From a virus: 64,000 nt of DNA. The position numbers and the translations under genes are program-made. Below are positions 29,239 to 63,298 of this stretch, in pieces. The notes below the pieces were generated by a model, which was not told where the DNA came from, did no database searches, and saw only the letters and a program-made list of their open reading frames with translations. The stretch is taken from positions 9,429-73,428 of the IMG/VR virus record IMGVR_UViG_3300032249_001455; one strand, 5' to 3'. How positions within the stretch are numbered: position 1 is the stretch's first letter; each line of letters opens with the position of its first letter.

Positions 29239-29250
29239 TGGTTTAAAAAA

Positions 29251-34317: not shown

Positions 34318-34323
34318 TTAACT

Positions 34324-46906: not shown

Positions 46907-47485
46907 ATGAAGACATTCAGCGAATGGGCGGGTAGCCAGCCGACAGAGGAAATGAAGTCTCTGTTTGAGAAAAGAACCCGTAGACATATTGCTCTCGTGG
47001 GCGAATTCTGTGACAGAATCGCAGAGCACGATGGCCGCTTCAAGGAACTTCTGGATAGAAAGAAATTCCACGACGACAGCAAGTTCAAGGAGCCGGAGTA
47101 CACCCCTTACCTGTTCGTGACTTGGAAGTACAAATGCAGGAAGGACGGCGAGGAATTCAAGGTTCCGAAGGAGATAGAGGACAGGATGCACGAGGCCACC
47201 CTCCACCATGTCACCACCAACTCCCACCACCCCGAGTACCACAGCCCGAGGAAGGACGGCCTCATCAACAAGGAGAACAGGGACGCGCCCCCAGAGGAGA
47301 TCGTGGATGCCACAAGCATGCCCGAACTCGACATCGCCGAGATGTGTGCCGACTGGATGGCAATGTCCAAGGAACTCGGCAGCAACCCCAAGGACTGGGC
47401 CGACAAGAATGTCAATGTGAGGTGGAAGTTCACAGAAGGACAGAAAAAACTGATCTACGACATCATCGGGGAGTGCTGGGAATGA
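46907..47485 (+). CDS. HD-like (DUF5662-type) protein with capsid-targeting-like N-terminus
   Basis: MKTFSEW; RHI, HDDSK, HH..N.HHPEYH, EMCADW. Confidence 0.7.
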   Translation: MKTFSEWAGSQPTEEMKSLFEKRTRRHIALVGEFCDRIAEHDGRFKELLDRKKFHDDSKFKEPEYTPYLFVTWKYKCRKDGEEFKVPKEIEDRMHEATLHHVTTNSHHPEYHSPRKDGLINKENRDAPPEEIVDATSMPELDIAEMCADWMAMSKELGSNPKDWADKNVNVRWKFTEGQKKLIYDIIGECWE

Positions 47486-47802
47486 GCCGATACTATTTCA
47501 AGGAGCCGAAAAAGGGTCTGTATCCCACTGAGGGGCTTTCCCTGAAGCTCTACAGGCTCCTCACGGAGAAGGGAAAGGACATGAAGAGGTCGGGCACCTT
47601 TTCAAAAGATGCCTGGACACAATATGTCATTTCTTTGGGGTGCGAATTCACAGATGAAACCTTTGTTCTGGATTCAGAAAGGGAAATCATATTCCGCGAC
47701 GAACATCATTTCACCCAGTTGAAGGACAGCAAGGCGTGGGACAGGCTGATAAAGGTTGATTTTGAAACCGCCATGAGGATCGCCACCCTAGGGCTGCCGT
47801 GA
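47482..47802 (+). CDS. LGxP-family paralogue 1
   Basis: KLYRLL; WTQYVISLGC; ETAMRIATLGLP*. Confidence 0.8.
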   Translation: MSRYYFKEPKKGLYPTEGLSLKLYRLLTEKGKDMKRSGTFSKDAWTQYVISLGCEFTDETFVLDSEREIIFRDEHHFTQLKDSKAWDRLIKVDFETAMRIATLGLP

Positions 47803-47906
47803 GGAAATAACATGATTAATGCCATAAAAGTTCTCTTCCTGATTGTCTTCCACTTGGGGGTCGCCATGTTCGCCGACGACGTTTTGGGCTTGTTTCGTTT
47901 CGTTTG

Positions 47907-48541
47907 ATGTTCGCAGAAAAACCCCAGACGTTGAAGGCGCCCGACGACGTCATTTATACGCCTCCCGCCCAGAAAACCCAGTCCCCTTTAGGGGCTGGGA
48001 TGAATGGCGGTTAACTGTGTAAAAAATAAAAATTAACACTATAGTAAGTATGAGATTCGGGACGGAATCTTTGTACTTCGGTACTAGAAGCCGACTCCCT
48101 TTAGGGGGTCGGAGCGTTCACTACTCAAACGGCGCTTCAGGCACGGTGGAGTCCATACACATAGGAGGGCGAACCGAGGTCGTCAAGGTGACGGGGGTCA
48201 GGCTGACCAAGCACTCCGGGTATTGCAACAAGACAAAATGGGGAAGGGAGACATGCCTGTGGAGGCTTGACGCCGACATAGAACAACCCGAGGGGAGGAA
48301 GAACTACTTCGCTCCCCATCTAGACGGCATGGTGGACGTGAAGCAGAAATCCGGCCAACTAACCGAGCACGGGGAACGCCCTTGGGATGCTCTGACCAAC
48401 ATGTGCGTGGGCTGGGACCAGTTGAGATACGCAAACATCGTCTTCAAGGACGACAAACCAGTTTCTTTACATTTCACTCATCTGAAGTACAATGGGGAAA
48501 AGTGGATTGAAATTGCAAGTTTTGAGGCCGATTTCAAATGA
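47907..48541 (+). pseudogene. Gene interrupted by mini-IS copy 2 (3' part in frame with element ATG at 48050)
   Basis: Removing 47958-48121 gives MFAEKPQTLKAPDDVIY-YSNGASG in frame. Confidence 0.75.
47958..48121 (+). mobile_element. 164-bp non-autonomous IS200/IS605-family mini-element, copy 2
   Basis: Follows TTTAT; ends GTTCAC; differs from copy 1 by one extra C and the AT-rich linker. Confidence 0.88.
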
Positions 48542-48858
48542 TTTCACAAGAATCTCTAAATTATTGGCTTGTCATCGTTGTGGCCTACTTGTATTTTTAT
48601 TCTTGGGTCACCGCCTTCAGGCTCAGGGCGATACTCAAGAAAATAGAGAAAATGGAAGAGTACTGATAATGGAATCTGCAAGGGAATTCGCGGCGGCTTT
48701 CGTCCTAGCCATGGGATTCGCCATGGCTTTCATGTTGGTTGCCACCCCGGTTATTATCTTTTTGACTTGGGCGCTCCACAGGCTTTTCCCGTCCCCGGAC
48801 ACGGACGACCCGGGTCCGAAGTGAAAAGTCTTCGAAAAAACCCGCACCCGGAAGCCAA

Positions 48859-49227
48859 ATGGAGAGAAGGATGAACGCGACGCCGAATATGACGAACGAG
48901 CAGAAGACAGAAAAACTGTACGGAATTTTCAGGAACAAACTGGACGAAATAAGGAACAACGCCCGCGTGGGCCACTCATTCAAAACGCTGGACGCCGACA
49001 CCGTGAGGAGATATGACAACATCGGTGCCATAATCTCGGACAAAATCGAGGAGTACCTCTCCGAGCAAGGGCCCCATGTGAGAAGCCTTCACGCCGACAA
49101 TCTGGTGCATCTCATCAATGAGGGTCCGTTGGACGCGGTTGCGATACGAAACCACGTGAATTACGACAATATCATCGTGATTGAAAGGGAATACGCCGAG
49201 AAGATACTTGTGCTGGGACTGCCATGA
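48859..49227 (+). CDS. LGxP-family paralogue 2
   Basis: KLYGIF; EEYLSEQG; EYAEKILVLGLP*. Confidence 0.8.
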   Translation: MERRMNATPNMTNEQKTEKLYGIFRNKLDEIRNNARVGHSFKTLDADTVRRYDNIGAIISDKIEEYLSEQGPHVRSLHADNLVHLINEGPLDAVAIRNHVNYDNIIVIEREYAEKILVLGLP

Positions 49228-49562
49228 ACGAAGCCGCTGAATTCAACGATGATCGCGGGTGGCATTCGCTCTTGGGCGGCCGTCGAGCCCCCGACCCCTT
49301 CTTGGGCAACGGCCCCATCCACGACCGATTCCAGAATTTTTTGTACGACCAGCACGACCTCGCGAATATTCAATTGAAAGAATGGGGCGAATTAGCCTTC
49401 AGGAGAAGGATGGAGAAAGCGGGAGCCAGATTTATTCTTCCCGTCGCTAGTCCATGGTCTTCTAAAAAGCCCAGTGATTGGGTTTTTGATTCTCCCTTTG
49501 GCGGATATCTGGTCATAGACAGGGAAGCCGCCGAGAAGATATTGGTTTTAGGCCTGCCATGA
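49224..49562 (+). CDS. LGxP-family paralogue 3
   Basis: EAAEKILVLGLP*. Confidence 0.8.
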   Translation: MNEAAEFNDDRGWHSLLGGRRAPDPFLGNGPIHDRFQNFLYDQHDLANIQLKEWGELAFRRRMEKAGARFILPVASPWSSKKPSDWVFDSPFGGYLVIDREAAEKILVLGLP

Positions 49563-49882
49563 GAGATCTTTTTGAAATCGTGAAGGCCGCAAATCAACAT
49601 CCCCACCACGATGACCCGAGGAAGATGAAGGTCTATGACATTCTTCAAAGAAAGTATACAGACTGCTTTGAAAACAAAGAGATAAAACAATCAATCAATT
49701 TTGACTATTTGGGTCTCGCCAAGGCAAAGATGAAGTGGCATGAATATCTCAAGTCGCTCGGAATGACTTTCAACAAGAATGACGGCATCTTTGACCCCTC
49801 GTGTCATCTGGAGTGGCAACAAAGGTATATTCAAATTCCCGAAGACATGATGGACAAGATACTGACACTGGGTCTGCCATGA
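49559..49882 (+). CDS. LGxP-family paralogue 4
   Basis: KVYDIL; WHEYLKSLGM; IPEDMMDKILTLGLP*. Confidence 0.8.
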   Translation: MRDLFEIVKAANQHPHHDDPRKMKVYDILQRKYTDCFENKEIKQSINFDYLGLAKAKMKWHEYLKSLGMTFNKNDGIFDPSCHLEWQQRYIQIPEDMMDKILTLGLP

Positions 49883-50127
49883 ACCAAGAAAAGGCCAATC
49901 TGATTGAAAATCTTCTCGTTCTTAAATATGATCGGGACTTCTACATGACGACGAAATCATGGGAAGATTATATACATTCCATCGGCTGTTCTTTCAGTCC
50001 CATAGTCGTGGAGCGCTATGAGGCATATGATCCCGACGTATTAGGGCAGGCGAGCGGAGTGGTGCGTAAAATATACATCCCGTTAGAGATCGGTCTCAAG
50101 GTCTTGACTCTCGGAGGTTTCCCGTGA
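49879..50127 (+). CDS. LGxP-family paralogue 5
   Basis: WEDYIHSIGC; IPLEIGLKVLTLGGFP*. Confidence 0.8.
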   Translation: MNQEKANLIENLLVLKYDRDFYMTTKSWEDYIHSIGCSFSPIVVERYEAYDPDVLGQASGVVRKIYIPLEIGLKVLTLGGFP

Positions 50128-50414
50128 ATCTTTCGTACGAGACAAAGAAGAAACTGAACGAGATGCTGTGGAAAAGGTACTTTGAAAAGAGTCGTGGCGA
50201 GATTTGGAGTCCGGACAGAAGCGAGTGGAAAGAATACCTGTTCAGTTTGGGCTGTGTTTTGGGAGTAGAGGGGAATGGGTGGCGACACATGGCTCCTCCG
50301 CCCAACAAGATTGAGGGAACCGTGGTGCTTAATGACCCGGCAGACTCGCTCCATGGAGTGGCCTTTCCCAACGAGGTTATTACAAGAGTCTTGATTCTCG
50401 GAGGTTTCCCGTGA
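50124..50414 (+). CDS. LGxP-family paralogue 6
   Basis: KLNEML; WKEYLFSLGC; FPNEVITRVLILGGFP*. Confidence 0.8.
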   Translation: MNLSYETKKKLNEMLWKRYFEKSRGEIWSPDRSEWKEYLFSLGCVLGVEGNGWRHMAPPPNKIEGTVVLNDPADSLHGVAFPNEVITRVLILGGFP

Positions 50415-50447
50415 AAAACAAAATCTACCGCATCTGGGGCTTCTGTC

Positions 50448-50753
50448 ATGGATTATGAGAAAATTGCCCGCGCCTTCAAGGAGTTGGCGTATAGGGCGAA
50501 TGGCCTCCGGTTGGAGAGCTCCGAAGCCGGCGAGACCTTCACCTGGGTGGGCGACGGGCTTCCTCAAAAATGGAAGAGTCTCAAGGAGCTGGAAGTTTAC
50601 TTTGAAGGCGTGGGTGGCAAGGTAACACCGTACGCCGAAAAAAGAGAAGGCTACCTTGTTGTGAACATAAGTGAGGACGAATGGATGCCGCAAGTTTTAG
50701 AAGTCCCCATGGAATTCGCCATGAAGGTCCTGACGCTAGGAGGATTCCCGTGA
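50448..50753 (+). CDS. LGxP-family paralogue 7
   Basis: VPMEFAMKVLTLGGFP*; close to paralogue 21. Confidence 0.8.
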   Translation: MDYEKIARAFKELAYRANGLRLESSEAGETFTWVGDGLPQKWKSLKELEVYFEGVGGKVTPYAEKREGYLVVNISEDEWMPQVLEVPMEFAMKVLTLGGFP

Positions 50754-51073
50754 AGTGGGACAAGGAATCGCTTGAGAAGGTGACTACGATCCTTGCCGAC
50801 CTCCCGCTGGAGAAGTGGCGCGAATTCAGCCAGGAAATGGACGCACGGGACGCAATTACATCCTCTTGGGCGGCGACGGTCTGGCCCTGTCCCGTCGGAA
50901 CCGCGCACATAAGCCAGGGGCATGACCCCAAGCCAGCATACCTGAAGTTGACAAACAAAGTCGTGATAAGGAATCCGTTCCCGCACCACCACTTTGTGAT
51001 AGCCACCACTCCCTACATCGAGGTGGATGCCGACATGGCGATGAAGGTCCTCGTATTGGGAGGTGTCCCTTGA
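50750..51073 (+). CDS. LGxP-family paralogue 8
   Basis: GTG start; WREF; IRNP; AMKVLVLGGVP*. Confidence 0.8.
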   Translation: MKWDKESLEKVTTILADLPLEKWREFSQEMDARDAITSSWAATVWPCPVGTAHISQGHDPKPAYLKLTNKVVIRNPFPHHHFVIATTPYIEVDADMAMKVLVLGGVP

Positions 51074-51345
51074 AATTAGACTCCGATCAGTACTTCAAGC
51101 TCGCCCAGCTCCTAAATGACAAGTACAATCGCGACTTCTGGATGGACGACGAGGCGTGGAAGAAATACTTGACTTCATTCGGCGGCGCCAGGATGGACAC
51201 GAACAACCCCCGCATAAAGACGATCTTTTTTCAGACGCTCAATGACCCCGTCGTCGTTCTGGTGGACCCCAACGACCTTGACTGTGTCTTGGCTATTCCC
51301 GACGAGATCGCCTTGAAGGCATTGGCGCTGGGCTGTTTCGCATGA
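51070..51345 (+). CDS. LGxP-family paralogue 9
   Basis: KLAQLL; WKKYLTSFG; IPDEIALKALALGCFA*. Confidence 0.8.
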   Translation: MKLDSDQYFKLAQLLNDKYNRDFWMDDEAWKKYLTSFGGARMDTNNPRIKTIFFQTLNDPVVVLVDPNDLDCVLAIPDEIALKALALGCFA

Positions 51346-51710
51346 TGCTTGACACGGACAAGTTGTACCTCCTCCTTAACGACAAGTGGCTTGAGGTAGG
51401 TCTTCTTTGGCGCAGCGCCTTCCGGCGGCAGATCGGTCTCGACGGTTCTCCGGCCCGCCGCACGACCCACGGACACGCCGAACGAAATCTGTGGGACGAA
51501 TACCTGCGGGAGATGAACATAGTCCACCCCGCAGTAGAAGTTCATTTTCTCGGAAGGGAGACCGAACACTACTTCGTCGAGAACCCGTCGGGGAAGGGGG
51601 GTTCAAGGGACATCTGGAAGTTGGGCATCCCCAAGGAGCTCGCCATGAAGGCCATTATTCTCGGATACTTCCCCGACAGCCCCTCGCTGGAACGCCTGAG
51701 GAACTCATGA
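51342..51710 (+). CDS. LGxP-family paralogue 10
   Basis: KLYLLL; WDEYLREM; IPKELAMKAIILGYFPDSPS. Confidence 0.8.
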   Translation: MMLDTDKLYLLLNDKWLEVGLLWRSAFRRQIGLDGSPARRTTHGHAERNLWDEYLREMNIVHPAVEVHFLGRETEHYFVENPSGKGGSRDIWKLGIPKELAMKAIILGYFPDSPSLERLRNS

Positions 51711-52096
51711 AGCGAAATTTCAAGATGGGGAAGGGCGAAAAGGACGCGACCCAGAAGATATACAAACTGCTTGACGACAGACTTTTGCGGATATCTGACG
51801 AGATATACGAGGAAAGCGACCCGGCCGAATCTAGCAAGTTAAGCATGGTTAAAATAGAGAAATTCTTTCAGCTGGAGTCCGCTTGGACGGCGTACCTTGA
51901 AGGATTGGGTCTCAAGAGGACAATGTGTTCGCACAAGGACTGGCGGCGCGAGGTCTCGATAGACAACTGCAGAATCAGCGACCCTCTCTGTGTCAGTATG
52001 TTCATCGATGTTCCAAAGGAACTAGCCCTGAAAGTCCTTGTTCTCGGATACCTTCCCGACAGCCCTTCAATCAAGAAGATGATTCAACCCGCATGA
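51707..52096 (+). CDS. LGxP-family paralogue 11
   Basis: KIYKLL; WTAYLEGLG; VPKELALKVLVLGYLPDSPS. Confidence 0.8.
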   Translation: MKRNFKMGKGEKDATQKIYKLLDDRLLRISDEIYEESDPAESSKLSMVKIEKFFQLESAWTAYLEGLGLKRTMCSHKDWRREVSIDNCRISDPLCVSMFIDVPKELALKVLVLGYLPDSPSIKKMIQPA

Positions 52097-52485
52097 CAAA
52101 AGACAAAATTTACCACCTGCTCAACGAAAAACTCTTCAACATCGCCGATTTGCACTATCAAAACGCCGGCGCGGAATGGAGGACCGTAGAAAACAAAGAA
52201 CTTTGGGAAACCTACCTAAAAGAGATGGGCATGGTCTTATTCGTACGATCAGGGTGGTTCAAGGAGAACGATATGGAGGACGAAATCGAGAACCTCTCCT
52301 TCTCGGACCTCCAAGGCCAGAAAGTTGACATTGAATGGATCAAAGAAAACCTTATAATAATCCAGGATCCGCTTGCGCAGTACCATAGAGTTGGCATCCC
52401 CAAGGAACTGGCCATGAGCGCCATGACCCTCGGATATTTCCCCGACAGCCCTTCAATTCAAAAGATGCGAGAACGCAATGAATAG
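52093..52485 (+). CDS. LGxP-family paralogue 12
   Basis: KIYHLL; WETYLKEMG; IPKELAMSAMTLGYFPDSPS. Confidence 0.8.
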   Translation: MTKDKIYHLLNEKLFNIADLHYQNAGAEWRTVENKELWETYLKEMGMVLFVRSGWFKENDMEDEIENLSFSDLQGQKVDIEWIKENLIIIQDPLAQYHRVGIPKELAMSAMTLGYFPDSPSIQKMRERNE

Positions 52486-52906: not shown

Positions 52907-53239
52907 ATGAACACTGACACTGCCATCTTGGAAACCAAGTTGTACGGTCTTCTGCTCAAGAAGTCGGAGGAAATCTGCAGAAATAACTCGGCTAGGTGTC
53001 CGGCCTTCTGGACTCCTTCAATCATACATAAGTGGGCGGAATATCTTGAGGGCATTGGATGCTTAAAAATAGATATCGTCCGTCCGCGGCGAGGGTGGAG
53101 CCATGCGAAGTACGCGAAATCCAAGGCCCCCGAAGGGACGCAGTGCATCGTGAACCCGGCGAATCTGGGCTTCCACAGCTTCGTTATCATCCCAAACGAT
53201 CTTGCCCTGAAGGCTCTCGCCTTGGGAGGGTTCCCGTGA
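52907..53239 (+). CDS. LGxP-family paralogue 13
   Basis: KLYGLL; WAEYLEGIGC; IPNDLALKALALGGFP*. Confidence 0.8.
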   Translation: MNTDTAILETKLYGLLLKKSEEICRNNSARCPAFWTPSIIHKWAEYLEGIGCLKIDIVRPRRGWSHAKYAKSKAPEGTQCIVNPANLGFHSFVIIPNDLALKALALGGFP

Positions 53240-53625
53240 GGGACAAAGTCTTCAAGCTCATCCTCTGCAGGATTCAAGAAATGTCCACCTGGTACAGCAG
53301 GAACTTCAACTTCCACGACAGGGCTAAAATAGATGAATGGCCGTGCAGCCAATACTCCATGATCCAGAACTACCTGGAGGAGATCGGATGCTCCCAAGTC
53401 CGATGCCCCAAGGAGGTCTTTTTGGAACTGAAGTACAGCCCCGGCGGCCGCAGGACCGCAGAACTCCTGAACATTAGCGAAGGGAAATTCTTCCTTTTGG
53501 CTCATCCTTGGGAGTCCACGACTCTAATCCTCATTCCGTACGAACTGGGCGTGAAGGCTGCCGCGCTCGGCGAGTTCCCAATCGGGCCAAAAACGTCTAG
53601 AATGCTCGGTCAGGGATTGAAATGA
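53236..53625 (+). CDS. LGxP-family paralogue 14
   Basis: KVFKLI; NYLEEIGC; IPYELGVKAAALGEFP. Confidence 0.8.
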   Translation: MRDKVFKLILCRIQEMSTWYSRNFNFHDRAKIDEWPCSQYSMIQNYLEEIGCSQVRCPKEVFLELKYSPGGRRTAELLNISEGKFFLLAHPWESTTLILIPYELGVKAAALGEFPIGPKTSRMLGQGLK

Positions 53626-54395: not shown

Positions 54396-54731
54396 ATGAA
54401 CCCGACAGACCATCTGATTGGCAGGCAAGAGGACTTGGACTTTCTAGTGAAGATGACTGAAAGTCTCTACAAAATGCTTGAGGAAAGACACCATGATCTC
54501 ATGGTCTTCTTCGGGGATATTTGTTGCGACCCCCAACGCTGGCCGATACATCTGAAGCCGATATGGTACGGGTATCTTATGGAATTGGGATGCAAAAAGG
54601 GCCTCCAATCAGGCGACTTCTTTAACATTCCCAGCCCTTCCAATGAATGGAAAGATACAGTGGCTTTCCCCAAGGATGTCGCCCTAAAGGCCTTGGCTCT
54701 CGACGCGTTGCCGGAAATGGACTTGAAATGA
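54396..54731 (+). CDS. LGxP-family paralogue 15
   Basis: LYKML; WYGYLMELGC; FPKDVALKALALDALP. Confidence 0.8.
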   Translation: MNPTDHLIGRQEDLDFLVKMTESLYKMLEERHHDLMVFFGDICCDPQRWPIHLKPIWYGYLMELGCKKGLQSGDFFNIPSPSNEWKDTVAFPKDVALKALALDALPEMDLK

Positions 54732-55048
54732 CCGACAAGATATACCTGCTCTTGAAGAAGAGGTTTGATGAACTGGTCGGAGCCTTTATCGCCGTCAAAA
54801 AAGAAGAACGCATTCTAGGCCTGAATGACATTTGGCTTAATTACCTTGAAGGCGTAGGATGTGCAGTCATTGACCATGTCCGCCCTCCATCGACCCCTCT
54901 TTCGGAATCGGAGAACTTCGTGATCTGTCGTAATCCCTCAAGCCCTCCTTTCGGCAAAGGGTCTGTGGAGGAGGTGTGGATTCCCAAGAAGACTGCGCTC
55001 AAGGCCCTCGTAGTAGGTGATTTTCCGCCCGCAAGCAAGCAAAAATGA
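54728..55048 (+). CDS. LGxP-family paralogue 16
   Basis: MTDKIYLLL; WLNYLEGVGC; IPKKTALKALVVGDFP. Confidence 0.8.
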   Translation: MTDKIYLLLKKRFDELVGAFIAVKKEERILGLNDIWLNYLEGVGCAVIDHVRPPSTPLSESENFVICRNPSSPPFGKGSVEEVWIPKKTALKALVVGDFPPASKQK

Positions 55049-55344
55049 CCGACAAGATATACAAACTCCTGAAAAAGAGGCTGAACGAGATTCACGCGAA
55101 AGCCATAGGCGATCCCTACGAATGGCCTGTGGAGCGCTTGTGGTGTGATTACCTTGATGAGATCGGATGTCGCCGATATCATAGTTCGGCCATCCTTGAT
55201 ATTCTTGATCAGGTCATTCCGGGAATTGAAGACCATGTGGTCTGCGTGAATCCCATGAGTGGCTTCATGAATTACATCGCCGTCCCCAAGGAGACCGCAC
55301 TCAAGGCCATAGTCCTCGGCGATTTCCCGGAGTTCTCTCTGTGA
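55045..55344 (+). CDS. LGxP-family paralogue 17
   Basis: MTDKIYKLL; WCDYLDEIGC; VPKETALKAIVLGDFP. Confidence 0.8.
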   Translation: MTDKIYKLLKKRLNEIHAKAIGDPYEWPVERLWCDYLDEIGCRRYHSSAILDILDQVIPGIEDHVVCVNPMSGFMNYIAVPKETALKAIVLGDFPEFSL

Positions 55345-55724
55345 AGGACGACAACGTGCTGAAACAAATAATAGAATCCGTCGAGTCAGTCCTTTGCGAT
55401 TTGTTTGATTGGCCCACGCGACAAACATGCGAAGCGCTGGACAGGATGGGTTGCGCTGAAAATTTGAAACTTGGTCATGTCTTTCGCATGAAATACATTG
55501 AGATGTCATATGAAAAATTCATTTTCGCCTGCAATGATCATTCATGCGTTCCGCTGGCTCGCGAATGGAATGCTTATTTGAATTCACTCGGATGTATTCC
55601 AGGATCAAAATACAAAGTCCTCCAAGTTTCGCGCAAAGACTTTATAGTCTCAAACCCGCCGGGCGGCTTCATCGTCGTTCCCGAAGAGACCGCCAGCAAA
55701 ATTCTCGTCTTGGGTCTGCCGTGA
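55341..55724 (+). CDS. LGxP-family paralogue 18
   Basis: WNAYLNSLGC; VPEETASKILVLGLP*. Confidence 0.8.
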   Translation: MKDDNVLKQIIESVESVLCDLFDWPTRQTCEALDRMGCAENLKLGHVFRMKYIEMSYEKFIFACNDHSCVPLAREWNAYLNSLGCIPGSKYKVLQVSRKDFIVSNPPGGFIVVPEETASKILVLGLP

Positions 55725-55733
55725 GGCGTCAAA

Positions 55734-56033
55734 ATGAACTCTAAAATGGGATGCACCAAACTCCACGCCCTATTGAATGAAAAGTGGGAAAAGGTGTTTG
55801 AACAGCACCGTTCCCTCCAGAAATGGGCGGAATATATCAACGAGATGGGCTTCAGGACGACAAAAATCGTATACGCTCCCGATCGGACCCCTGAAGGACA
55901 CATTGCGTATGCGATGCAATTTCCCGACCACGAGGACGTCTTCTTCGTCCTTGACCCGCTGAGCAAATTGCATCTTATTTCAATTCCACAGGAATTCGCC
56001 TTCAAGGTTCTGGCTTTGGGAGGATTCCCGTGA
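55734..56033 (+). CDS. LGxP-family paralogue 19
   Basis: KLHALL; WAEYINEMG; IPQEFAFKVLALGGFP*. Confidence 0.8.
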   Translation: MNSKMGCTKLHALLNEKWEKVFEQHRSLQKWAEYINEMGFRTTKIVYAPDRTPEGHIAYAMQFPDHEDVFFVLDPLSKLHLISIPQEFAFKVLALGGFP

Positions 56034-56308
56034 CACACCGCCAGAAATCCGAAAAATTCAAGGAACTGCTCTGGAACACCAACATCGCACGGGGATACAG
56101 CGGGCCCGACAGGCTGAGGTGGAAGAACAAGGAACAGTTCGCGGATTATGTTGAGGACATCGGCGGCAGGGTCAAGGCGGACATGAGGAAGCGCAGAGGA
56201 TATCTGGTTCTCCTTATTCGAGAAGAAGCATGTGGCAGACCCCAGATTGTCGCGGAGTTCCCAATAGAGTTCGTGGACAGGGCTCTGGCGCTAGGATTCC
56301 TGCCATGA
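56030..56308 (+). CDS. LGxP-family paralogue 20
   Basis: KFKELL; DYVEDIGG; FPIEFVDRALALGFLP*. Confidence 0.8.
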   Translation: MTHRQKSEKFKELLWNTNIARGYSGPDRLRWKNKEQFADYVEDIGGRVKADMRKRRGYLVLLIREEACGRPQIVAEFPIEFVDRALALGFLP

Positions 56309-56601
56309 GGTACGAGGAGAAGGCCAGGATATTCAGAGAGCTTGCCTATAAAGCCAACGGGCTCACCTATCCGCCGCTGCCGAGGTGGGTCGGCGACCCG
56401 AGCCCGGACAGACAAAGATGGAAGAGCATCAAGGAGTTGGAAGCTTATTTCCAGGGCTGGGGCGGCCGTTTCAAAATGGACAACAAGAGAAGACGGGGAT
56501 ATCTGGTGGTGGACTTGAACGAGGGCATGAATACATCTCAGATCATAGAAGTCCCCATGGAGTTCGCCACGAGGGTCTTGGCGTTGGGTGGATTTCCTTG
56601 A
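56305..56601 (+). CDS. LGxP-family paralogue 21
   Basis: VPMEFATRVLALGGFP*; close to paralogue 7. Confidence 0.8.
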   Translation: MRYEEKARIFRELAYKANGLTYPPLPRWVGDPSPDRQRWKSIKELEAYFQGWGGRFKMDNKRRRGYLVVDLNEGMNTSQIIEVPMEFATRVLALGGFP

Positions 56602-56638
56602 ACTTTACGTTGAAAGGAATCAAGACTATAATGCTCTC

Positions 56639-57980: not shown

Positions 57981-58290
57981 AAAGATAATTTTCAATGCCG
58001 AGTGCGACAGCTGCGGCGGAACCGGACTCTATAGGGGTTTCATGGAAGGCCCCGGCCATGCGGTTGTTTGCACCAACTGCGCCGGGACAGGCTGCGCAAC
58101 CGTAAGGCTCAAGCCCTTCGAGGGCAGGAAAAGAAAGAACGGCATCAAAAAGGTTCGTTTCGGATCGGGACTCATTTTGGACGCCACCGGCGAGTCGGTG
58201 TGGTTCTCATACAAGGACTTTCTTGAGAAAGTCCCCACCACCCCGAAGTGCAAAAAGAAAATTGCAAAGCGAAAGAAGGCGAAAAAATGA
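57967..58290 (+). CDS. DnaJ-type Cys-rich zinc-finger protein
   Basis: CDSCGGTG and CTNCAGTG. Confidence 0.65.
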   Translation: MKSSKKIIFNAECDSCGGTGLYRGFMEGPGHAVVCTNCAGTGCATVRLKPFEGRKRKNGIKKVRFGSGLILDATGESVWFSYKDFLEKVPTTPKCKKKIAKRKKAKK

Positions 58291-58739: not shown

Positions 58740-59837
58740 TTTAACCTTGCGGTTATCCACAATAGGCTTGTTGATAGAAGCCCTTGAAATATTAATTGCA
58801 GCATTGAGATCAGCATTATTTTCATAATCGCAAGACAAGCATTTAAAATCACTTTGATTCAAGCGATTATCTTCATGGCAATGACCACATTTGCTGCACG
58901 TTTGACTTGTATAAGCGGGATTAATGTAGACAACAGGAACGCCCAACAACTTGGCTTTGTAATCAATAAATTGTCGTAATTGAAAGAAAGCCCACTTACC
59001 CAGTCTTGCATTATTGTCTTTCCACTTCTTGGTGTAACCTTTGCTCTTAACCTTTTTCTTAAAGTTCAAATCTTCTAATTTGATTCCAACCTTAAGTGCA
59101 TTTGCTTTCTCTACCAATTTCTTGCTTATATAATGATTGACATCTTTCTTGTAATTCGCTTCCCTTTTACTTATTTTCTTGAGTTTGTATTTTGCCGATA
59201 CTGACTTTTTGCTTTGCAGGTCAGTCTTTAGTTTTGTGATCTTCTTTCTGTATTCTTCAACTTGTTTTCCGCTGAAAACTTCGCCATCGCTTGTGGTTGC
59301 CAAATTAACAACACCCAAATCAACGCCAATAAATTTTTCAGTGTCATATGGAGCAAGTTCAGTTTTATCATAAAAGAAACTTACATAGAACCTGTTTGTT
59401 GGTTTGTCAAAGTTTAATTCGCTTTGACAACAAAGATCATAATCTTTGAGTGGTTTATGGTATTTGTATTTAATACTTATCCTTTTGCCAAGAGTTGCCA
59501 AGGATATTACATTGTCTTTTTTGATTGAAAGGTTTCTTGTGTCGTAATCGATACTGCCCATTTCTTTAAAGTTAACAATACCAATTCTTTGTTTCTTGTT
59601 TTTATAAACATCAACCACTTTGCCAATCGCTCTTATTGCCAATTGGCTTGAGAGGTTGTATTTCTGCTTGATTTCGTAATAAACAAGTTTGTGCAGATTG
59701 ACTTGACCAAAGGTTTTGTTTTCAAATGCGACCCTTGAAACATAGTTGGCGGCACGGTTGAAAGCAATCATTGTTTGAGTTAATTGCTCTTTTTCCTTTT
59801 GGTTGACCACCAATTTGACTTTTGTCGCAAGTTTCAT
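58719..59837 (-). CDS. tnpB: RNA-guided endonuclease TnpB
   Basis: RuvC GVDLG, KLEDL, YTSQTCSKCG..CLSC, NADLNAAINI; start taken at MKLATK. Confidence 0.93.
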   Translation of the reverse strand: MKLATKVKLVVNQKEKEQLTQTMIAFNRAANYVSRVAFENKTFGQVNLHKLVYYEIKQKYNLSSQLAIRAIGKVVDVYKNKKQRIGIVNFKEMGSIDYDTRNLSIKKDNVISLATLGKRISIKYKYHKPLKDYDLCCQSELNFDKPTNRFYVSFFYDKTELAPYDTEKFIGVDLGVVNLATTSDGEVFSGKQVEEYRKKITKLKTDLQSKKSVSAKYKLKKISKREANYKKDVNHYISKKLVEKANALKVGIKLEDLNFKKKVKSKGYTKKWKDNNARLGKWAFFQLRQFIDYKAKLLGVPVVYINPAYTSQTCSKCGHCHEDNRLNQSDFKCLSCDYENNADLNAAINISRASINKPIVDNRKVKSQTQSL

Positions 59838-59887
59838 ATTTTCACATACCTTCAATAGGTATGTATGCACCTATTTTAAAATTTTCC

Positions 59888-59915
59888 TTGACTATTTAGG
59901 AAATTTTCTTATACT
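59888..59915 (+). promoter_or_regulatory. Outward-facing sigma70-type promoter inside IS left end
   Basis: TTGACT-16 nt-TATACT pointing to gene at 59970. Confidence 0.5.
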
Positions 59916-59969
59916 AAACGGCAATTCCTCCCACCCGCTAAAGCAGGTGGGTTTCCTTGCCGGTGACAC

Positions 59970-60272
59970 ATGAACCATCAAAGGCTTCTTGAAATCTTCA
60001 TGGCCAAACTGGACCAGGTCTGTCCGCTGAACAAAACCACTGGGCAACAAATAGTAAGCGGACAGAAAGCCCGTAACGACGCCTGGTGGTCGCTCATGGA
60101 CAACCATGGATGCAAAATGATACCGTCTGGGCAAATAGCGGACTTGGTCAACAACGGCCCAGGCGACTACGTGTGTATGAAGTCTTTCAATGTGTCCGTG
60201 GTGAATGCCCACTGGGTACTCGTTCCCAAGAAACTGGCGGAGAAGGCTCTCGTCCTAGGATATGTCCCATGA
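59970..60272 (+). CDS. LGxP-family paralogue 22
   Basis: WWSLMDNHGC; VPKKLAEKALVLGYVP*. Confidence 0.8.
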   Translation: MNHQRLLEIFMAKLDQVCPLNKTTGQQIVSGQKARNDAWWSLMDNHGCKMIPSGQIADLVNNGPGDYVCMKSFNVSVVNAHWVLVPKKLAEKALVLGYVP

Positions 60273-60544
60273 GCATAATGGACACGGCGGAGGGATGGAA
60301 GAAACTCTACTGTATCATCCAATCCGACTTCGCCCTGCACCGCATGTACCAAAGGACAGACGAGGAGTGGAACAGAAAGTTGAAATCCCTCGGCGGCATA
60401 TTCTCCGAAGAAAAGCCTTGGCGCGGGATCAGGAAACAAATAAACCCCAACGACACGATCACCATGTCAAATCCCGCCGGCGGATGGATTCAAATTGAAG
60501 TTGAGACCGCAGAGAAAATAGTGGTGTTTGGGTCAATTCCGTGA
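60269..60544 (+). CDS. LGxP-family paralogue 23
   Basis: KLYCII; WNRKLKSLGG; ETAEKIVVFGSIP*. Confidence 0.8.
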   Translation: MSIMDTAEGWKKLYCIIQSDFALHRMYQRTDEEWNRKLKSLGGIFSEEKPWRGIRKQINPNDTITMSNPAGGWIQIEVETAEKIVVFGSIP

Positions 60545-60614: not shown

Positions 60615-60905
60615 ATGGATTCAAATTATAACCCCCAAACGAAAAAAGACGTTCTCGCCGAGATAGAGAAGACGAGACGGGACTTTCCCGAGAGCCCCTC
60701 TGGATACGAGGTCGTATGCGACGCAGTTCTTGAGATGGCCTACGAGGAGATATTTGAGCTCAGGACAGTCGTCAAGAGCAGGAATTTCTCTGATTTTGAA
60801 CTGAAACTTCTGGCCGAGATTGCGGATGCGGCCTACGAAGCGGATGTGGCCGGCTGGGACACATTGCGTTCGCTGTTTGTAGGTTTCGGAGTCAAGCTGA
60901 AATGA
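60615..60905 (+). CDS. Hypothetical protein
   Basis: TATAAT at 60588 and GGAGG SD upstream. Confidence 0.65.
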   Translation: MDSNYNPQTKKDVLAEIEKTRRDFPESPSGYEVVCDAVLEMAYEEIFELRTVVKSRNFSDFELKLLAEIADAAYEADVAGWDTLRSLFVGFGVKLK

Positions 60906-61270
60906 CCGACTGGAAGGAATCTGCCGACAAACTCCGTGCCATATTTGAGGACAAGGCGCGCAGGATTAGACTTGATATACCCGCCGATGAGATTGCGGAG
61001 GAGGCTGGGAAGGCCTTCCTTGCGGGAACCCCCGGCGACGACGGATCATGGCTGATGGAAGGATCGGGACTGGAGGCTCTGATACGCCGGATCAACAGCG
61101 GCCACAAGGATGGAATAGTCCGAATCGCCAACGAGATAGGAGCCGTAGTAATAGAAGAGCGAGGCGAAGGCGAGGACGAAGAAAATATTTTTGTGCGAAC
61201 CAACGGCCTATTGATTAAAATCCACAAGGAAACCGCACTCAAGATACTGATGCTGGGAGAAATTCCATGA
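60902..61270 (+). CDS. LGxP-family paralogue 24
   Basis: KLRAIF; ETALKILMLGEIP*. Confidence 0.75.
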   Translation: MTDWKESADKLRAIFEDKARRIRLDIPADEIAEEAGKAFLAGTPGDDGSWLMEGSGLEALIRRINSGHKDGIVRIANEIGAVVIEERGEGEDEENIFVRTNGLLIKIHKETALKILMLGEIP

Positions 61271-61914: not shown

Positions 61915-61915
61915 A

Positions 61916-62281
61916 ATGGAAGAAAAAGAAAAAAGGCTGAAGGCTCTTGAGGAACTCTCCCGACTTGACCAGGAATTGGACTTGGCTTGGCCCGAGAGCC
62001 GAGAGATAGAAGGGCTTAGGCTCGTTTGTACAAGTCCGGCCTGTCCTGAACAATACGATGTGCTTGATGCCCAAGGCATACAGATCGGATATCTGCGTCT
62101 TCGTCACGGACGGTTCAGGGCGGACTACCCCGATTGCGGAGGGGATACGGTCTATGTGTCCAACACAAAGGGCGACGGCGCATTTGAGGAGAGCGAGAGG
62201 CTTCCCGAACTCACGAACGCGGTGAGGAAGCTGAAGGAAAGGCAGGAGAAGGACGCATGCACTGGCCCCGCAACAGACTGA
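61916..62281 (+). CDS. Conserved hypothetical phage protein
   Basis: ACPEQYDV, GYLRLRHG, GDG.F..ER. Confidence 0.65.
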   Translation: MEEKEKRLKALEELSRLDQELDLAWPESREIEGLRLVCTSPACPEQYDVLDAQGIQIGYLRLRHGRFRADYPDCGGDTVYVSNTKGDGAFEESERLPELTNAVRKLKERQEKDACTGPATD

Positions 62282-62622
62282 AGAAGGTTCCGCTTCCCCA
62301 CAGCAGGATGCTGACGGGCGGAGTGGAGGACAAGCTTGACTCCATAATCTTCTCCGCGTTTATGCGATTGTTCGGCCCCAACGAGAATTGGCCGATCAAC
62401 ACCCGTCAGAGGAAGGAGTGGGGGCAGTTCCTGTCCGACAGGGGCATAGTCTGGGAGGTGCGGCTCAGGAACAAGCCCAATTGGGAGGGATGGGAGGTTG
62501 TGGAGGGAAAGGTAGGCGTGGTGGTGCGTCCCCGAGGCCTAGAAGACCACATGAAAATAAACCACTACTTCGTCCCCAAAGACCTCGCCATGAGGATGCT
62601 CGCCTTGGGGGAGCTTCTCTGA
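62257..62622 (+). CDS. LGxP-family paralogue 25
   Basis: KLDSII; WGQFLSDRG; VPKDLAMRMLALGELL*; start uncertain. Confidence 0.75.
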   Translation: MHWPRNRLKKVPLPHSRMLTGGVEDKLDSIIFSAFMRLFGPNENWPINTRQRKEWGQFLSDRGIVWEVRLRNKPNWEGWEVVEGKVGVVVRPRGLEDHMKINHYFVPKDLAMRMLALGELL

Positions 62623-62972
62623 TGGAAAAGGAACTCATCGAAAAACTTTCCCGCATGTTCAGGGACGAATACGAAAAGATAGACCTGGCCTTCTACGAGG
62701 CCGAGGCCTGGAAGAAATACCTGCGAGGATACGACGAGATACATTTTTTGAGCGGAATTTCCGACATGCTCGAGTTCATCAACCACGGCGAAATCCTCGG
62801 CAAAAATCCTGTCGCGGTGAAGAACCCGGCCGCGGTCATGGGGATTCTCGTCCTTCCAAGGGAATTCGCAGAGAAGATCCTCGCCCTCGGATTACCCCGC
62901 GATGTTTCGTCCACGGTGGAGGAATTCAAAGACAGGCCCGTTCCGAGGCTCGGTAGGAAGTCCAAGAAATGA
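62622..62972 (+). CDS. LGxP-family paralogue 26
   Basis: KLSRMF; WKKYLRG; LPREFAEKILALGLP. Confidence 0.8.
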   Translation: MEKELIEKLSRMFRDEYEKIDLAFYEAEAWKKYLRGYDEIHFLSGISDMLEFINHGEILGKNPVAVKNPAAVMGILVLPREFAEKILALGLPRDVSSTVEEFKDRPVPRLGRKSKK

Positions 62973-63298
62973 CCTGGACATCCGAAGCTGTGGAAAAATT
63001 GAACGAACTTGTCACGGCAAAGTTCGGCGAAATCAGGGGTGCGATCCGACTCCTGCCGGGCGACTTCAGGGAGCATGCCATGGGGATAGATAAGGCTTTG
63101 CATAATTACTGCATGGGCGTCGGGCTGAAGATGAACATAATTCACCACACGGAGACCAGGGAAGACCTACCCGCTCCCGGAGAAGCCATATTCCTTTCCG
63201 ACGGAACGGTGAGAATGAGAAACCTCTGGGGAGACAAATATTTGGACATTCCAGAAGATTTTGCCGTCAGGGCCCTCGCCCTCGGTTTTTTGCCTTGA
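62969..63298 (+). CDS. LGxP-family paralogue 27
   Basis: KLNELV; IPEDFAVRALALGFLP*. Confidence 0.8.
   Translation: MTWTSEAVEKLNELVTAKFGEIRGAIRLLPGDFREHAMGIDKALHNYCMGVGLKMNIIHHTETREDLPAPGEAIFLSDGTVRMRNLWGDKYLDIPEDFAVRALALGFLP

What the first reader, a model, noticed from the sequence alone, without database searches (positions are those of the whole stretch)
47482..63298. Array of about 27 hypervariable small paralogues on one conserved scaffold
Seen: 27 co-oriented ORFs of about 80-130 aa fill most of 16 kb. They share an N-terminal K[LI]YxLLxx[KR] helix, a central WxxYLxx[LIM]G[CM], a hydrophobic-[ND]P turn and a C-terminal [IVF]PxExAx[KR]xLxLGx[FL]P. The segments between motifs are unrelated in length and sequence. 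No catalytic residue is invariant and no TM or signal segment is evident. I do not recognise the family. Inference: a fixed fold with variable loops, expanded by duplication, suggests a library of binders or adaptors against many host targets (anti-defence or host takeover) that dock on a common partner. This is the best candidate here for an undescribed system.
Basis: partly seen in the sequence, partly recalled or inferred. Interest (0 to 1): 0.92.

Follow-up and report, generated by a model that had tools for sequence, protein, structure and literature searches.

The report
Phage array of 27 small paralogues
A large uncultured freshwater phage carries 27 old, very different copies of one small, undescribed, apparently virus-only protein in back-to-back genes; each copy is kept by selection, so each probably has its own job in the infected cell, but that job is untested.

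Summary
Window 47482-63298 holds 27 co-oriented genes (82-130 aa) of one family, and none lies elsewhere in the 73-kb virus record. A profile built only from 116 outside proteins finds 26 of the 27 among 674 window ORFs and nothing else.

It comprises 568 clusters at 50% identity. It was found only on phage-like contigs, and always in same-strand arrays of 2 to about 35 copies.

"Hypervariable" is misleading. Paralogues are old (median 22% identity). 21 of 27 have a closer counterpart in a related phage, and orthologues are under purifying selection, loops included (dN/dS 0.10-0.21). Whole cassettes come and go between relatives.

A repertoire of specific binders is my best guess. Docking on a common partner has no support.

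The scan has noted similar giant arrays of other, unrelated families in other jumbo phages, but not this family.

The parts
47482..47802 (+). member 1, 106 aa, ends RIATLGLP
   Evidence: own-profile E 3.5e-19; outside-only profile E 1.7e-12
48859..49227 (+). member 2, 122 aa (starts at 48871 or 48889 also possible), ends KILVLGLP; stop overlaps next start (ATGA)
   Evidence: E 7.2e-20; 2e-21; start candidates; junction
49224..49562 (+). member 3, 112 aa; divergent N-terminal half
   Evidence: E 2.0e-11; the outside profile matches only its last 40 positions, E 6.3e-7; orthologue in relative M 81% aa, dN/dS 0.31
49559..49882 (+). member 4, 107 aa
   Evidence: E 2.4e-15; 4.4e-16; orthologue 81%, dN/dS 0.07
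49879..50127 (+). member 5, 82 aa, ends VLTLGGFP
   Evidence: E 1.7e-15; 1.2e-8
50124..50414 (+). member 6, 96 aa, GTG start
   Evidence: E 3.9e-22; 2.4e-13; orthologue 90%, dN/dS 0.19
50448..50753 (+). member 7, 101 aa; subgroup with members 20 and 21
   Evidence: E 1.5e-16; the outside profile matches the C-terminal half only, 4.9e-7; 56% identical to member 21
50750..51073 (+). member 8, 107 aa, GTG start
   Evidence: E 2.4e-16; 2.3e-11; no counterpart in relative M
51070..51345 (+). member 9, 91 aa, TTG start, ends ALALGCFA
   Evidence: E 2.5e-20; 1.2e-13
51342..51710 (+). member 10, 122 aa, motif followed by tail DSPSLERLRNS
   Evidence: E 8.7e-19; 7.9e-15; best counterpart in G002 locus 66%
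51707..52096 (+). member 11, 129 aa, tail DSPSIKKMIQPA
   Evidence: E 1.7e-22; 2.9e-21
52093..52485 (+). member 12, 130 aa, long insert between strands 1 and 2, tail DSPSIQKMRERNE
   Evidence: E 3.6e-22; 3.4e-16; orthologue 93%, dN/dS 0.08
52907..53239 (+). member 13, 110 aa (an earlier start at 52838 is possible)
   Evidence: E 6.9e-23; 9.3e-20; orthologue 76%, dN/dS 0.33
53236..53625 (+). member 14, 129 aa, GTG start, 18-residue tail after the conserved Gly
   Evidence: E 9.7e-18; 7.2e-9; orthologue 90%, dN/dS 0.33
54396..54731 (+). member 15, 111 aa; Asp in place of the conserved Gly
   Evidence: E 2.7e-18; 9.7e-13; orthologue 83%, dN/dS 0.19
54728..55048 (+). member 16, 106 aa; one-cassette presence/absence difference in relatives
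   Evidence: E 5.0e-22; 6.9e-18; absent from M; a relative's contig joins 54725 to 55043, skipping 317 nt with 20 nt shared at the joint
55045..55344 (+). member 17, 99 aa; modelled
   Evidence: E 3.6e-25; 1.3e-22; AlphaFold2 pLDDT 88.9, pTM 0.81; orthologue 96%, dN/dS 0.13
55341..55724 (+). member 18, 127 aa, GTG start, long N-terminal extension
   Evidence: E 3.9e-18; 1.2e-16; orthologue 94%, dN/dS 0.23; skipped in one relative's contig (55337 to 55730)
55734..56033 (+). member 19, 99 aa
   Evidence: E 3.3e-23; 9.3e-17; orthologue 85%, dN/dS 0.21
56030..56308 (+). member 20, 92 aa, GTG start; most divergent
   Evidence: E 9.3e-15 with the own profile; missed by the outside-only profile; 44% identical to member 21
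56305..56601 (+). member 21, 98 aa; modelled
   Evidence: E 1.9e-17; C-terminal half only with the outside profile, 4.5e-6; AlphaFold2 pLDDT 89.8, pTM 0.83, same order of elements as member 17
59970..60272 (+). member 22, 100 aa, first gene after the TnpB insertion
   Evidence: E 8.3e-20; 1.7e-21; orthologue 78%, dN/dS 0.15
60269..60544 (+). member 23, 91 aa
   Evidence: E 5.2e-19; 1.5e-13; orthologue 87%, dN/dS 0.15
60902..61270 (+). member 24, 122 aa, acidic (net -8)
   Evidence: E 1.3e-10; 2.3e-10; 84-88% counterparts in loci L004 and L018; charge
62257..62622 (+). member 25, 121 aa, basic (pI 10.1), ends LALGELL
   Evidence: E 4.7e-18; 2.4e-8; 88% counterpart in L004
62622..62972 (+). member 26, 116 aa, motif followed by a 24-residue basic tail
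   Evidence: E 7.2e-18; 9.4e-17; 80% counterpart in L004
62969..63298 (+). member 27, 109 aa, last before a tail-fibre-like gene
   Evidence: E 1.3e-19; 3.7e-13; 71% counterpart in L004

Best explanation
Shown:
- This is a multigene family, found here only on phage-like contigs, of about 100-residue soluble single-domain proteins.
- All copies share one small alpha/beta core: helix, helix carrying W..YL..G, strand, variable segment, strand ending in D/N-P, strand, helix P.E.A.K.L.LG, then a short [LF]-P tail. No solved or predicted viral structure matches it.
- The 27 copies are old paralogues. Most have their own orthologue in related phages, and each is kept by purifying selection, including its variable segments.
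- They sit in runs whose stop codons overlap the next start.
- The runs gain and lose whole cassettes between close relatives, which is birth-and-death evolution by recombination between neighbouring copies.

Inferred:
- Each copy is a specific binder (an inhibitor, decoy or adaptor) for a different host or rival-element protein. Together they would form an accessory repertoire for defence evasion or host takeover.
- The conserved motifs are the folding core rather than a proven shared docking site.
For: Family and array:
- 27 copies in the record. An independent outside profile finds 26 of the 27 among 674 ORFs and nothing else.
- One fold: two subgroups are modelled at pLDDT 88.9 and 89.8 with the same order of elements.

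No known relative:
- Pfam, PHROGs, NCBIfam and PADLOC give only single stray hits.

Phage-linked and always in arrays:
- 568 clusters at 50% identity at E<=1e-3, the best 150 being 79-209 aa.
- 34-35 matches in three fragments of one related virus, and 19 in another.
- At least 2 copies on one strand in 24 of 24 fetched loci, several of them redundant.
- 0 of 34 pattern hits in 185,579 prokaryote species genomes encode a relative, against 17 of 78 in metagenomes and 4 of 8 in IMG/VR.

Old, individually kept copies:
- Median paralogue identity is 22% over 351 pairs.
- 21 of 27 members score better against a 20-kb locus of a distant relative than against any window paralogue.
- dN/dS is 0.07-0.33 (median 0.19) for 12 orthologue pairs, against 0.06-0.25 (median 0.145) for 10 neighbouring genes.
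- Conserved columns give 0.10, variable columns 0.20 and inserts 0.21.

Accessory turnover:
- The relative M lacks the stretch with members 7-11 and member 16.
- Contigs from three other studies join 49882-49884 to 51372-51380. Single runs show the joins 54725 to 55043 and 55337 to 55730.

Varied surfaces:
- pI runs from 4.5 to 10.1.
- No TM segment and no invariant polar residue.
Against: - No binding, target, expression timing or phenotype has been observed. The function is inferred from evolutionary pattern alone.
- Purifying selection on the loops, with no sign of positive selection in pairwise averages, is not the classic signature of an arms-race binder.
- Stable orthologues over 44-96% identity would fit housekeeping-like roles in the phage cycle, such as assembly or regulation, just as well.
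- Nothing in the neighbourhood is a known anti-defence gene. The neighbours are PHROGs of unknown function, a cREC receiver domain and a metallophosphatase.
- The absence from cellular genomes rests on one sequence pattern.
Confidence: 0.4

Rival explanations
1. Hub-docking adaptors. The variable segments bind different targets, and the invariant C-terminal L-G-x-[LF]-P tail plugs into one shared partner, for example a ring protease, a sliding clamp or a phage machine.
For: - L91, G92 and P95 are at least 90% conserved over 143 members.
- LG.{0,1}[LFVI]P occurs in 22 of 27 copies.
- The motif lies at the very end in 19 of 27 copies (3-4 residues from the conserved Gly/Asp to the end).
- Recalled, not tested here: short hydrophobic C-terminal or loop motifs dock many clients on one hub. 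Examples are the Pol IV clamp-binding tail, the ClpX IGF loop and HbYX tails.
Against: - The tail is modelled as an ordered part of the domain, with pLDDT 92-98 in the last two 10-residue blocks of both models.
- Eight members keep the motif 8-27 residues from the end.
- P-x-E and the A/L/G pattern are what a packed, capped helix needs.
- No candidate hub was identified among conserved neighbours.
- No fusions to other domains were found among longer proteins, which is weak evidence.
Confidence: 0.12
2. Virion-associated or assembly proteins. This could be a set of internal, ejected or decoration proteins, or specific chaperones for them, made together in fixed amounts through translational coupling.
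For: - 23 of 27 stops overlap the next start, which would give coupled and roughly equal synthesis.
- The array lies between tail-fibre-like genes: 26560-36624 with Mtd_N and Laminin_G domains, and 63327 onward.
- Orthologues are stably conserved.
- Two of the best 150 relatives are tandem two-domain fusions, P0009 and P0025.
- Recalled: T4 internal proteins and phiKZ inner-body proteins are small paralogous families.
Against: - Overlapping stops and starts also occur at non-family junctions in this region, so coupling is not special to the family.
- Copy content differs between close relatives, which is unusual for structural parts.
- There is no proteomic data.
Confidence: 0.15
3. Antitoxin-like neutralisers related to the HicB N-terminal domain, each copy blocking a different host toxin or abortive-infection effector. 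This is a special case of the binder reading, with a named ancestry.
For: The family profile's best PDB sequence hit is E. coli-type HicB (6hpb, 6u0i). It improves from E 0.5 (27 sequences) to 0.053-0.06 (143 sequences) over 42 residues covering strand, loop, strand and helix.
Against: - The E-values are not significant, and the two chains are one protein family.
- Pfam HicB_lk_antitox and HicB profiles find nothing in the record, although they ring in 6 and 7 of 14 control genomes. The HicA_toxin profile also finds nothing.
- HicB is not among the listed structural matches of either model. That absence is inconclusive.
- The N-terminal half, two helices, differs in order from the strand-first HicB domain (recalled).
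Confidence: 0.08
4. Neutral filler. The copies are duplicates that merely fill a capsid that grew larger, with no function of their own. The conserved C-terminus would then be a DNA-level ribosome-binding and restart signal ('self-chaining cassettes').
For: - Hua et al. 2017 proposed tandem duplication as a way in which jumbo genomes expand (passages read).
- The LGGFP codons read CTN GGA GGN TTC CCN TGA, a Shine-Dalgarno-like GGAGG 7-8 nt before an overlapping start, at 6 junctions.
- 26 of 27 stops are TGA.
- There is a slight excess of identical codons in the last 15 columns, 0.398 observed against 0.338 expected.
Against: - dN/dS is 0.07-0.33, and orthologues are retained at 44-96% identity.
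- The motif is kept at protein level when internal and across 143 members.
- GGR at the conserved Gly is not significantly enriched: 17 of 26 against 80 of 170, p=0.09.
- Only 15 of 27 starts have GGAG, GAGG or AGGA upstream.
- The DNA repeats at junctions are only 60-85% alike.
Confidence: 0.03

Closest known systems
Tandem arrays of more than 30 similar genes in jumbo phages G and 121Q (Hua et al. 2017, PMC5646251; cited in the 2026 review PMC13282480)
   Same: Dozens of co-oriented tandem copies of one small uncharacterised protein in a large phage, with function unknown. Relatives of this phage reach 34-35 copies.
   Different: It is a different family. The 143-sequence profile finds 0 matches at E<=0.1 in either genome but 28 matches, covering all 27 genes, in the own record. 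Here the copies are deeply diverged (median 22% identity), not 'very similar'.
Multigene families of large eukaryotic DNA viruses (poxvirus ankyrin/PRANC and Bcl-2-like families, ASFV MGF360/505); recalled, not read here
   Same: Virus-only paralogue repertoires with one scaffold, variable copy number between strains, and a role (in those viruses) in host-range and immune evasion.
   Different: Those have known folds and known host partners. Here the fold is unmatched and no partner is known. The host is a bacterium.
Strings of non-identical immunity-gene paralogues beside polymorphic toxin or T7SS loci (EsaG; bioRxiv 10.1101/2022.01.07.475358, listing and start of abstract only)
   Same: Tandem small paralogues that evolve by homologous recombination between neighbours, each neutralising a different protein variant.
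   Different: Those lie in bacterial chromosomes next to a toxin gene. This family was not found in prokaryote genomes (0 of 34 pattern hits), and no toxin gene is adjacent.
HicB antitoxin, N-terminal domain (PDB 6hpb, 6u0i)
   Same: Local sequence likeness of strand, loop, strand-Pro and helix (I.VP..A.K.L.L) over 42 residues, E 0.053-0.06.
   Different: The E-values are not significant. Pfam HicB profiles do not match. There is no DNA-binding domain and no HicA partner. The N-terminal half differs.
Hyperplastic regions and internal-protein loci of T4-type phages (recalled; Arbiol et al. 2010 named in an earlier scan note)
   Same: Accessory small genes that are shuffled cassette-wise between related phages.
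   Different: T4 regions hold unrelated genes that share regulatory cassettes or only a short targeting peptide. Here the whole domain is homologous, and the junction DNA is only 60-85% alike.

Membership tests
Any curated protein family (Pfam-A, PHROGs v4, NCBIfam 20, PADLOC 2) | Significant profile match shared by the members | tested here: not met
   All 27 members were scanned in each library. The best is FeoA in 1 of 27 (E 3.7e-4). No family is hit by more than one member.
HicB-like antitoxins (PF15919, PF05534) | Match to the Pfam profiles | tested here: not met
   0 matches in the record at E<=0.01 and E<=1. The controls ring in 6 and 7 of 14 genomes.
HicB-like antitoxins (PF15919, PF05534) | Shared fold of the N-terminal domain | tested here: inconclusive
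HicB-like antitoxins (PF15919, PF05534) | Adjacent HicA toxin gene | tested here: not met
   PF07927 gives 0 matches at E<=1 in the 73-kb record. The control rings in 12 of 14 genomes. The record is a fragment.
Jumbo-phage tandem paralogue arrays (Hua et al. 2017) | Dozens of tandem co-oriented copies of one small gene in a large phage | tested here: met
   27 copies here, and 34-35 and 19 in related fragments. Family members occur on contigs of up to 326,785 bases.
Jumbo-phage tandem paralogue arrays (Hua et al. 2017) | Homology to the phage G or 121Q array proteins | tested here: not met
   0 matches at E<=0.1 in JN638751 and KM507819. The positive control gives 28 matches in the own record.
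Jumbo-phage tandem paralogue arrays (Hua et al. 2017) | Copies 'very similar' (recent duplication) | tested here: not met
   Median identity is 22% and the maximum 56% over 351 pairs. 21 of 27 have closer counterparts in another phage.
Immunity-protein strings of polymorphic toxin systems | Location in cellular genomes next to a toxin gene | tested here: not met
   0 of 34 pattern hits in prokaryote species genomes encode a relative. The neighbours are phage genes of unknown function.
Hub-docking clients (clamp-binding or IGF/HbYX-type tails; recalled) | Flexible terminal peptide that binds a shared partner | not testable with these tools
   The host and the partner are unknown. The models place the tail in the ordered domain. 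No complex with a candidate hub was run.
Capsid-targeted internal proteins (T4 IP type; recalled) | Presence in the virion and a cleaved targeting peptide | not testable with these tools
   There are no proteomic data for any phage that carries the family. The family is absent from 50,697 GenBank phage records by four tblastn queries.

The most novel reading that the evidence does not exclude
A germline-encoded binder library on a previously unseen minimal alpha/beta fold. A clade of large freshwater phages keeps about 20-35 fixed specificities, each neutralising or redirecting a different host defence, toxin or housekeeping protein. It would be the bacterial-virus counterpart of the poxvirus and ASFV multigene families, and a natural scaffold with two tolerant insertion sites.
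Probability: 0.3. Interest if true: 0.8.

Novelty: new member of a known kind. Interest (0 to 1): 0.6.

Why it matters
Giant tandem arrays of small unknown proteins are a recurring, unexplained feature of jumbo phages and take up several per cent of their genomes. This family adds a clean case:
- It is large, with 568 clusters at 50% identity.
- It was found only on phage-like contigs.
- It has a confidently predicted fold with no solved match.
- Orthologues exist in related phages, and they show that every copy is under selection.

If the copies are specific binders, each is a ready-made probe for a host process or defence. The scaffold, with two segments that tolerate 0-40-residue insertions, could be of use in protein engineering. 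If they are not binders, they point to an unknown multi-component step of large-phage infection.

Tried and rejected
Homodimer test (collected; member 55045 with alignment A4, two copies): no verdict, median score 0.39 against the mark 0.42. It counts neither for nor against binding.

Expression: no RNA holder is listed for 49224-58739, so nothing can be said about expression.

ESM Atlas: no usable hit by features for member 55045 or P0046. The Atlas's own model of 55045 is poor (pLDDT 0.47), and its structural neighbours have TM<0.5.

Longer fused forms: none of 8000 candidates of 267-2000 aa scored. This is weak evidence.

FeoA (1 of 27 members, E 3.7e-4) is rejected as a local strand-helix likeness.

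LR756504.1, a 636-kb uncultured phage, is the best GenBank match of the neighbouring metallophosphatase. It has no family member.

DNA-level explanation of the C-terminus (ribosome-binding site or recombination repeat): tested and found to be at most a minor contribution.

Conserved neighbours as a candidate partner: none is shared by both groups of array-bearing loci apart from two unknown ORFs. A MoxR-like ATPase, a DUF2201 metallopeptidase/VWA protein, DUF6878, DUF6915 and a PP-loop ATPase flank the arrays in the second group only.

Promoter and terminator scan: 23 promoter-like sites against 14.7 +/- 4.1 expected, and 21 terminator-like sites against 23.2 +/- 4.7 expected. It is not informative. 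No tRNA genes were found.

Literature: four full-text searches found no paper on this family, only the general remark on arrays in phages G and 121Q. The paralogue table of the CBB paper (PMC5259590, Supplementary S2) and any gene lists of Hua et al. 2017 could not be seen and may describe those other arrays further.

Full report
WHAT IS THERE

The window is bases 9429-73428 of a 73,428-base linear IMG/VR virus record that CheckV rates 44% complete. It is a tailed phage. Upstream of the finding lie:
- a DnaB-like helicase;
- a DEAD-box helicase interrupted by an intein with a LAGLIDADG domain;
- a C5 DNA methylase;
- three large tail-fibre-like proteins with Mtd_N, Laminin_G and arylsulfotransferase-like domains.

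From 47482 to 63298 there are 27 genes of one family, all on the + strand and 82-130 codons long.

A loose pattern for the C-terminal motif hits 26 frames on the + strand and none on the - strand of the whole window. The 27th copy has the motif 27 residues before its end.

A profile of the 27 finds just these 27 places in the whole record. Because that is circular, I built a profile from 116 outside proteins only. It finds 26 of the 27 among 674 ORFs of at least 50 aa, at E 1.3e-22 to 4.5e-6, and nothing else.
- 22 members match nearly the full profile.
- Members 49224, 50448 and 56305 match only its C-terminal part.
- Member 56030 is missed, but it is 44% identical to 56305.

The family covers 56% of the 15.8 kb. 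Interspersed are:
- four small single-pass membrane proteins;
- a stand-alone cREC receiver domain (PF20274, E 4.7e-23);
- a DnaJ-type zinc-finger-like protein;
- a metallophosphatase;
- several PHROGs of unknown function;
- a TnpB gene on the opposite strand.

THE FAMILY ELSEWHERE

An exhaustive profile search of 1.84 billion representative proteins gives 568 clusters at E<=1e-3 and 27 at E<=1e-10. The best 150 are 79-209 aa long, and nearly all end in the same helix plus L-G-x-L-P. Two of them (P0009, P0025) are tandem two-domain fusions.

Every source name on record is 'hypothetical protein'. Members occur on contigs of up to 326,785 bases.

Related virus fragments carry 34-35 matches (three fragments of one virus, CheckV 6-18%) and 19 matches (another virus, 12%).

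In all 24 loci fetched from IMG/VR and metagenomes there are at least two copies, always on one strand. Several loci are redundant:
- L001-3, L005-7 and L019 are one virus;
- L012 and L015 are one contig;
- L013 and L014 look alike.

Results of the pattern scans and tblastn queries:
- The pattern [EDK]xAEKILVLG gave 34 hits in 185,579 prokaryote species genomes, and none encodes a relative.
- The same pattern gave 17 relatives of 78 hits in metagenomes. The pattern AEKILVLG gave 4 of 8 in IMG/VR.
- Four tblastn queries against 50,697 GenBank phage records found nothing.

So the family looks restricted to a clade of uncultured large phages. The runs that hold parts of this stretch are labelled freshwater or lake metagenomes, and contigs of four of them lay on it at 80% likeness or more.

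FOLD

AlphaFold2 models member 55045 (27-sequence alignment) at pLDDT 88.9 and pTM 0.81. It models the divergent member 56305 (102-sequence alignment) at 89.8 and 0.83.

The order of elements is the same in both: a long N-terminal helix, a second helix (W..YL..G), a short strand, a variable segment, a strand ending in D/N-P, a strand, and a C-terminal helix (P.E.A.K.L.LG). In 55045 the variable segment holds a small helix.

Length variation sits in two places: between the two helices (0 to about 40 residues) and after the first strand.

No significant structural match was found:
- Foldseek finds no match at E<=1e-3 in the PDB (model 1) or BFVD (both models).

A weak or missing match does not prove a new fold, but nothing known is close.

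The only sequence lead is HicB (6hpb, 6u0i). It improves from E 0.5 to 0.053 as the profile deepens, over the strand-loop-strand-helix part. The Pfam HicB and HicA profiles find nothing in the record, although they ring in control genomes. I treat it as a local likeness.

HOW THE COPIES EVOLVE

Paralogues are far apart: median identity is 22%, the interquartile range 19.5-25.3% and the maximum 56% over 351 pairs.

They are nevertheless not fast-evolving. A metagenome contig (loci L015 and L012, here called M) is collinear with window 46.4-60.5 kb at about 83-85% DNA identity.

Selection measured against M:

| Set | Pairs or codons | dN/dS |
|---|---|---|
| Family orthologues at >=70% protein identity with a finite dS | 12 pairs | 0.07-0.33, median 0.19 |
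| Neighbouring non-family genes | 10 pairs | 0.06-0.25, median 0.145 |
| Conserved columns, pooled over 13 orthologue pairs | 285 codons | 0.10 |
| Variable profile columns, same pairs | 808 codons | 0.20 |
| Insert (loop) codons, same pairs | 282 codons | 0.21 |

The first two rows are and the last three.

Against a 20-kb locus of a more distant virus, 21 of 27 window members score higher than against any paralogue in the window, with counterparts at 44-84% identity. Most duplications therefore predate the split of these phages, and each copy has been kept.

With the second group of loci (L009, L011, L013, L016) no one-to-one counterparts are seen.

At the same time the repertoire is fluid. 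M lacks the stretch that holds members 7-11 and has one gene where the window has members 16 and 17. Contigs of relatives from other studies show these joins:
- 49882-49884 to 51372-51380, seen in three runs. This removes members 5-9.
- 54725 to 55043. This removes exactly one cassette, with 20 shared bases at the joint.
- 55337 to 55730. This removes member 18.

The tool warns that joints at likeness under 95% in metagenomes can come from other organisms. The first two agree with the independent contig M.

This is birth-and-death evolution by recombination between neighbouring copies.

THE C-TERMINUS: PROTEIN OR DNA SIGNAL?

Points that suggest a DNA-level signal:
- 23 of 27 stops overlap the next start, mostly as ATGA, GTGA or TTGA, and 26 of 27 stops are TGA.
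- In the LGGFP subgroup the Gly-Gly codons spell GGAGG 7-8 bases before the next start. Earlier first-stage notes on this genome had flagged this.

Tests of that idea:
- GGA/GGG at the conserved Gly: 17 of 26 against 80 of 170 other Gly codons (p = 0.09).
- Only 15 of 27 starts have a GGAG, GAGG or AGGA upstream.
- Identical codons at identical residues exceed expectation only slightly in the last 15 columns (0.398 against 0.338), and not in the middle (0.375 against 0.380).
- Junction repeats are 60-85% alike.
- Eight members keep the motif 8-27 residues inside the protein.
- L91, G92 and P95 are at least 90% conserved over 143 members from many phages.

So the motif is a protein feature. The embedded ribosome-binding site is at most a secondary use.

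Both models place the last residues in the ordered domain (pLDDT 92-98). P-x-E at the start of the helix and the A/L/L/G face are what a capped, packed helix requires (inference). The conserved residues therefore need no shared partner to explain them.

WHAT IT MOST LIKELY DOES

Shown: a large family, found so far only on phage-like contigs, with one fold; copies are soluble and non-enzymatic by sequence; surfaces are heterogeneous (pI 4.5-10.1); each copy is under selection; the content of the array is accessory.

Inferred: a repertoire of specific protein binders acting in the infected cell. I put this at about 0.4.

Its weak points are the complete lack of direct evidence and the absence of any sign of positive selection.

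Rivals:
- Hub-docking adaptors (0.12).
- Virion-associated or assembly proteins (0.15).
- HicB-like toxin neutralisers (0.08).
- Neutral filler with a DNA-level junction signal (0.03, largely refuted).

The rest is unassigned.

KNOWN OR NEW?

The phenomenon is in print. Hua et al. [quoted passage not shown] Neither assigns a function.

Those arrays are not this family. The 143-sequence profile finds nothing in either genome but finds all 27 genes in the own record.

Earlier follow-ups of this scan describe comparable arrays of other families in a soil jumbo phage, an E. coli jumbo phage and Microcystis phages. I did not check those.

Four literature searches found nothing on this family. I therefore file it as a new member of a known, still unexplained kind.

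LIMITS

- The record is a fragment, and the window ends at the contig end, so the array may continue.
- The host is unknown.
- Start codons are chosen by position, not shown.
- dN/dS values are pairwise Nei-Gojobori estimates from my own script.
- Several comparisons have saturated dS and were left out: 6 family rows and 2 neighbour rows with undefined dS. Rows below 70% identity were also left out.
- Absence from cellular genomes rests on a single pattern.

Noticed in passing
window 52780-52934, 47803-48049 and 58704-58737: Small non-coding insertions are linked to the TnpB gene. A relative's contig skips exactly 155 nt at 52779-52935. A 34-nt hairpin-bearing repeat (88% alike) lies at 52781-52814 and at 58704-58737, the latter at the 3' end of the TnpB gene. 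The bin 47803-48403 has very high summed depth and many loose ends at 47952-48014 in other metagenomes, as expected of a mobile mini-element. Earlier first-stage notes call these mini-IS elements.
   Followed up: partly
window 58719-59870 (-): A TnpB/Cas12f-like gene (OrfB_IS605 plus the Cas12f1-like TNB domain) is the only minus-strand gene in the stretch. It splits the array between 58739 and 59970. The syntenic relative M has no DNA match for 58708-59968.
   Followed up: partly
window 53622-53924: A stand-alone 100-aa cREC receiver domain (PF20274, E 4.7e-23; phrog_1479) lies inside the array. It is 88% conserved in the relative, with dN/dS 0.15. Its role in a phage is unexplained.
   Followed up: no
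window 48492-48824, 52478-52816, 53897-54250, 57260-57478: Four small proteins (72-117 aa), each with one strongly hydrophobic stretch (Kyte-Doolittle 19-residue maximum 2.4-2.9), are interspersed among the family genes. 52478-52816 also has a CxxC...CxxC pair.
   Followed up: no
window 15271-18591: A DEAD/DEAH helicase gene is interrupted by an intein with a LAGLIDADG homing-endonuclease domain.
   Followed up: no
window 26560-29238, 34324-36624 and 63327-64000: Tail-fibre-like proteins carry C-terminal arylsulfotransferase-like domains. A further fibre-like gene at the window end has a long Thr-Pro-Thr-Asn repeat. The array lies between them.
   Followed up: no
window 57958-58290: A 110-aa protein has two CxxCxGxG-like motifs (a DnaJ-type zinc finger by eye) and a Lys-rich tail. 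It is conserved in relatives at 81% with dN/dS 0.15. It has only PHROGs of unknown function.
   Followed up: no
loci L009, L011, L017: In a second group of array-bearing phages the arrays are flanked by a MoxR-like AAA+ ATPase, a DUF2201 metallopeptidase/VWA protein, DUF6878, DUF6915 and a PP-loop ATPase.
   Followed up: partly
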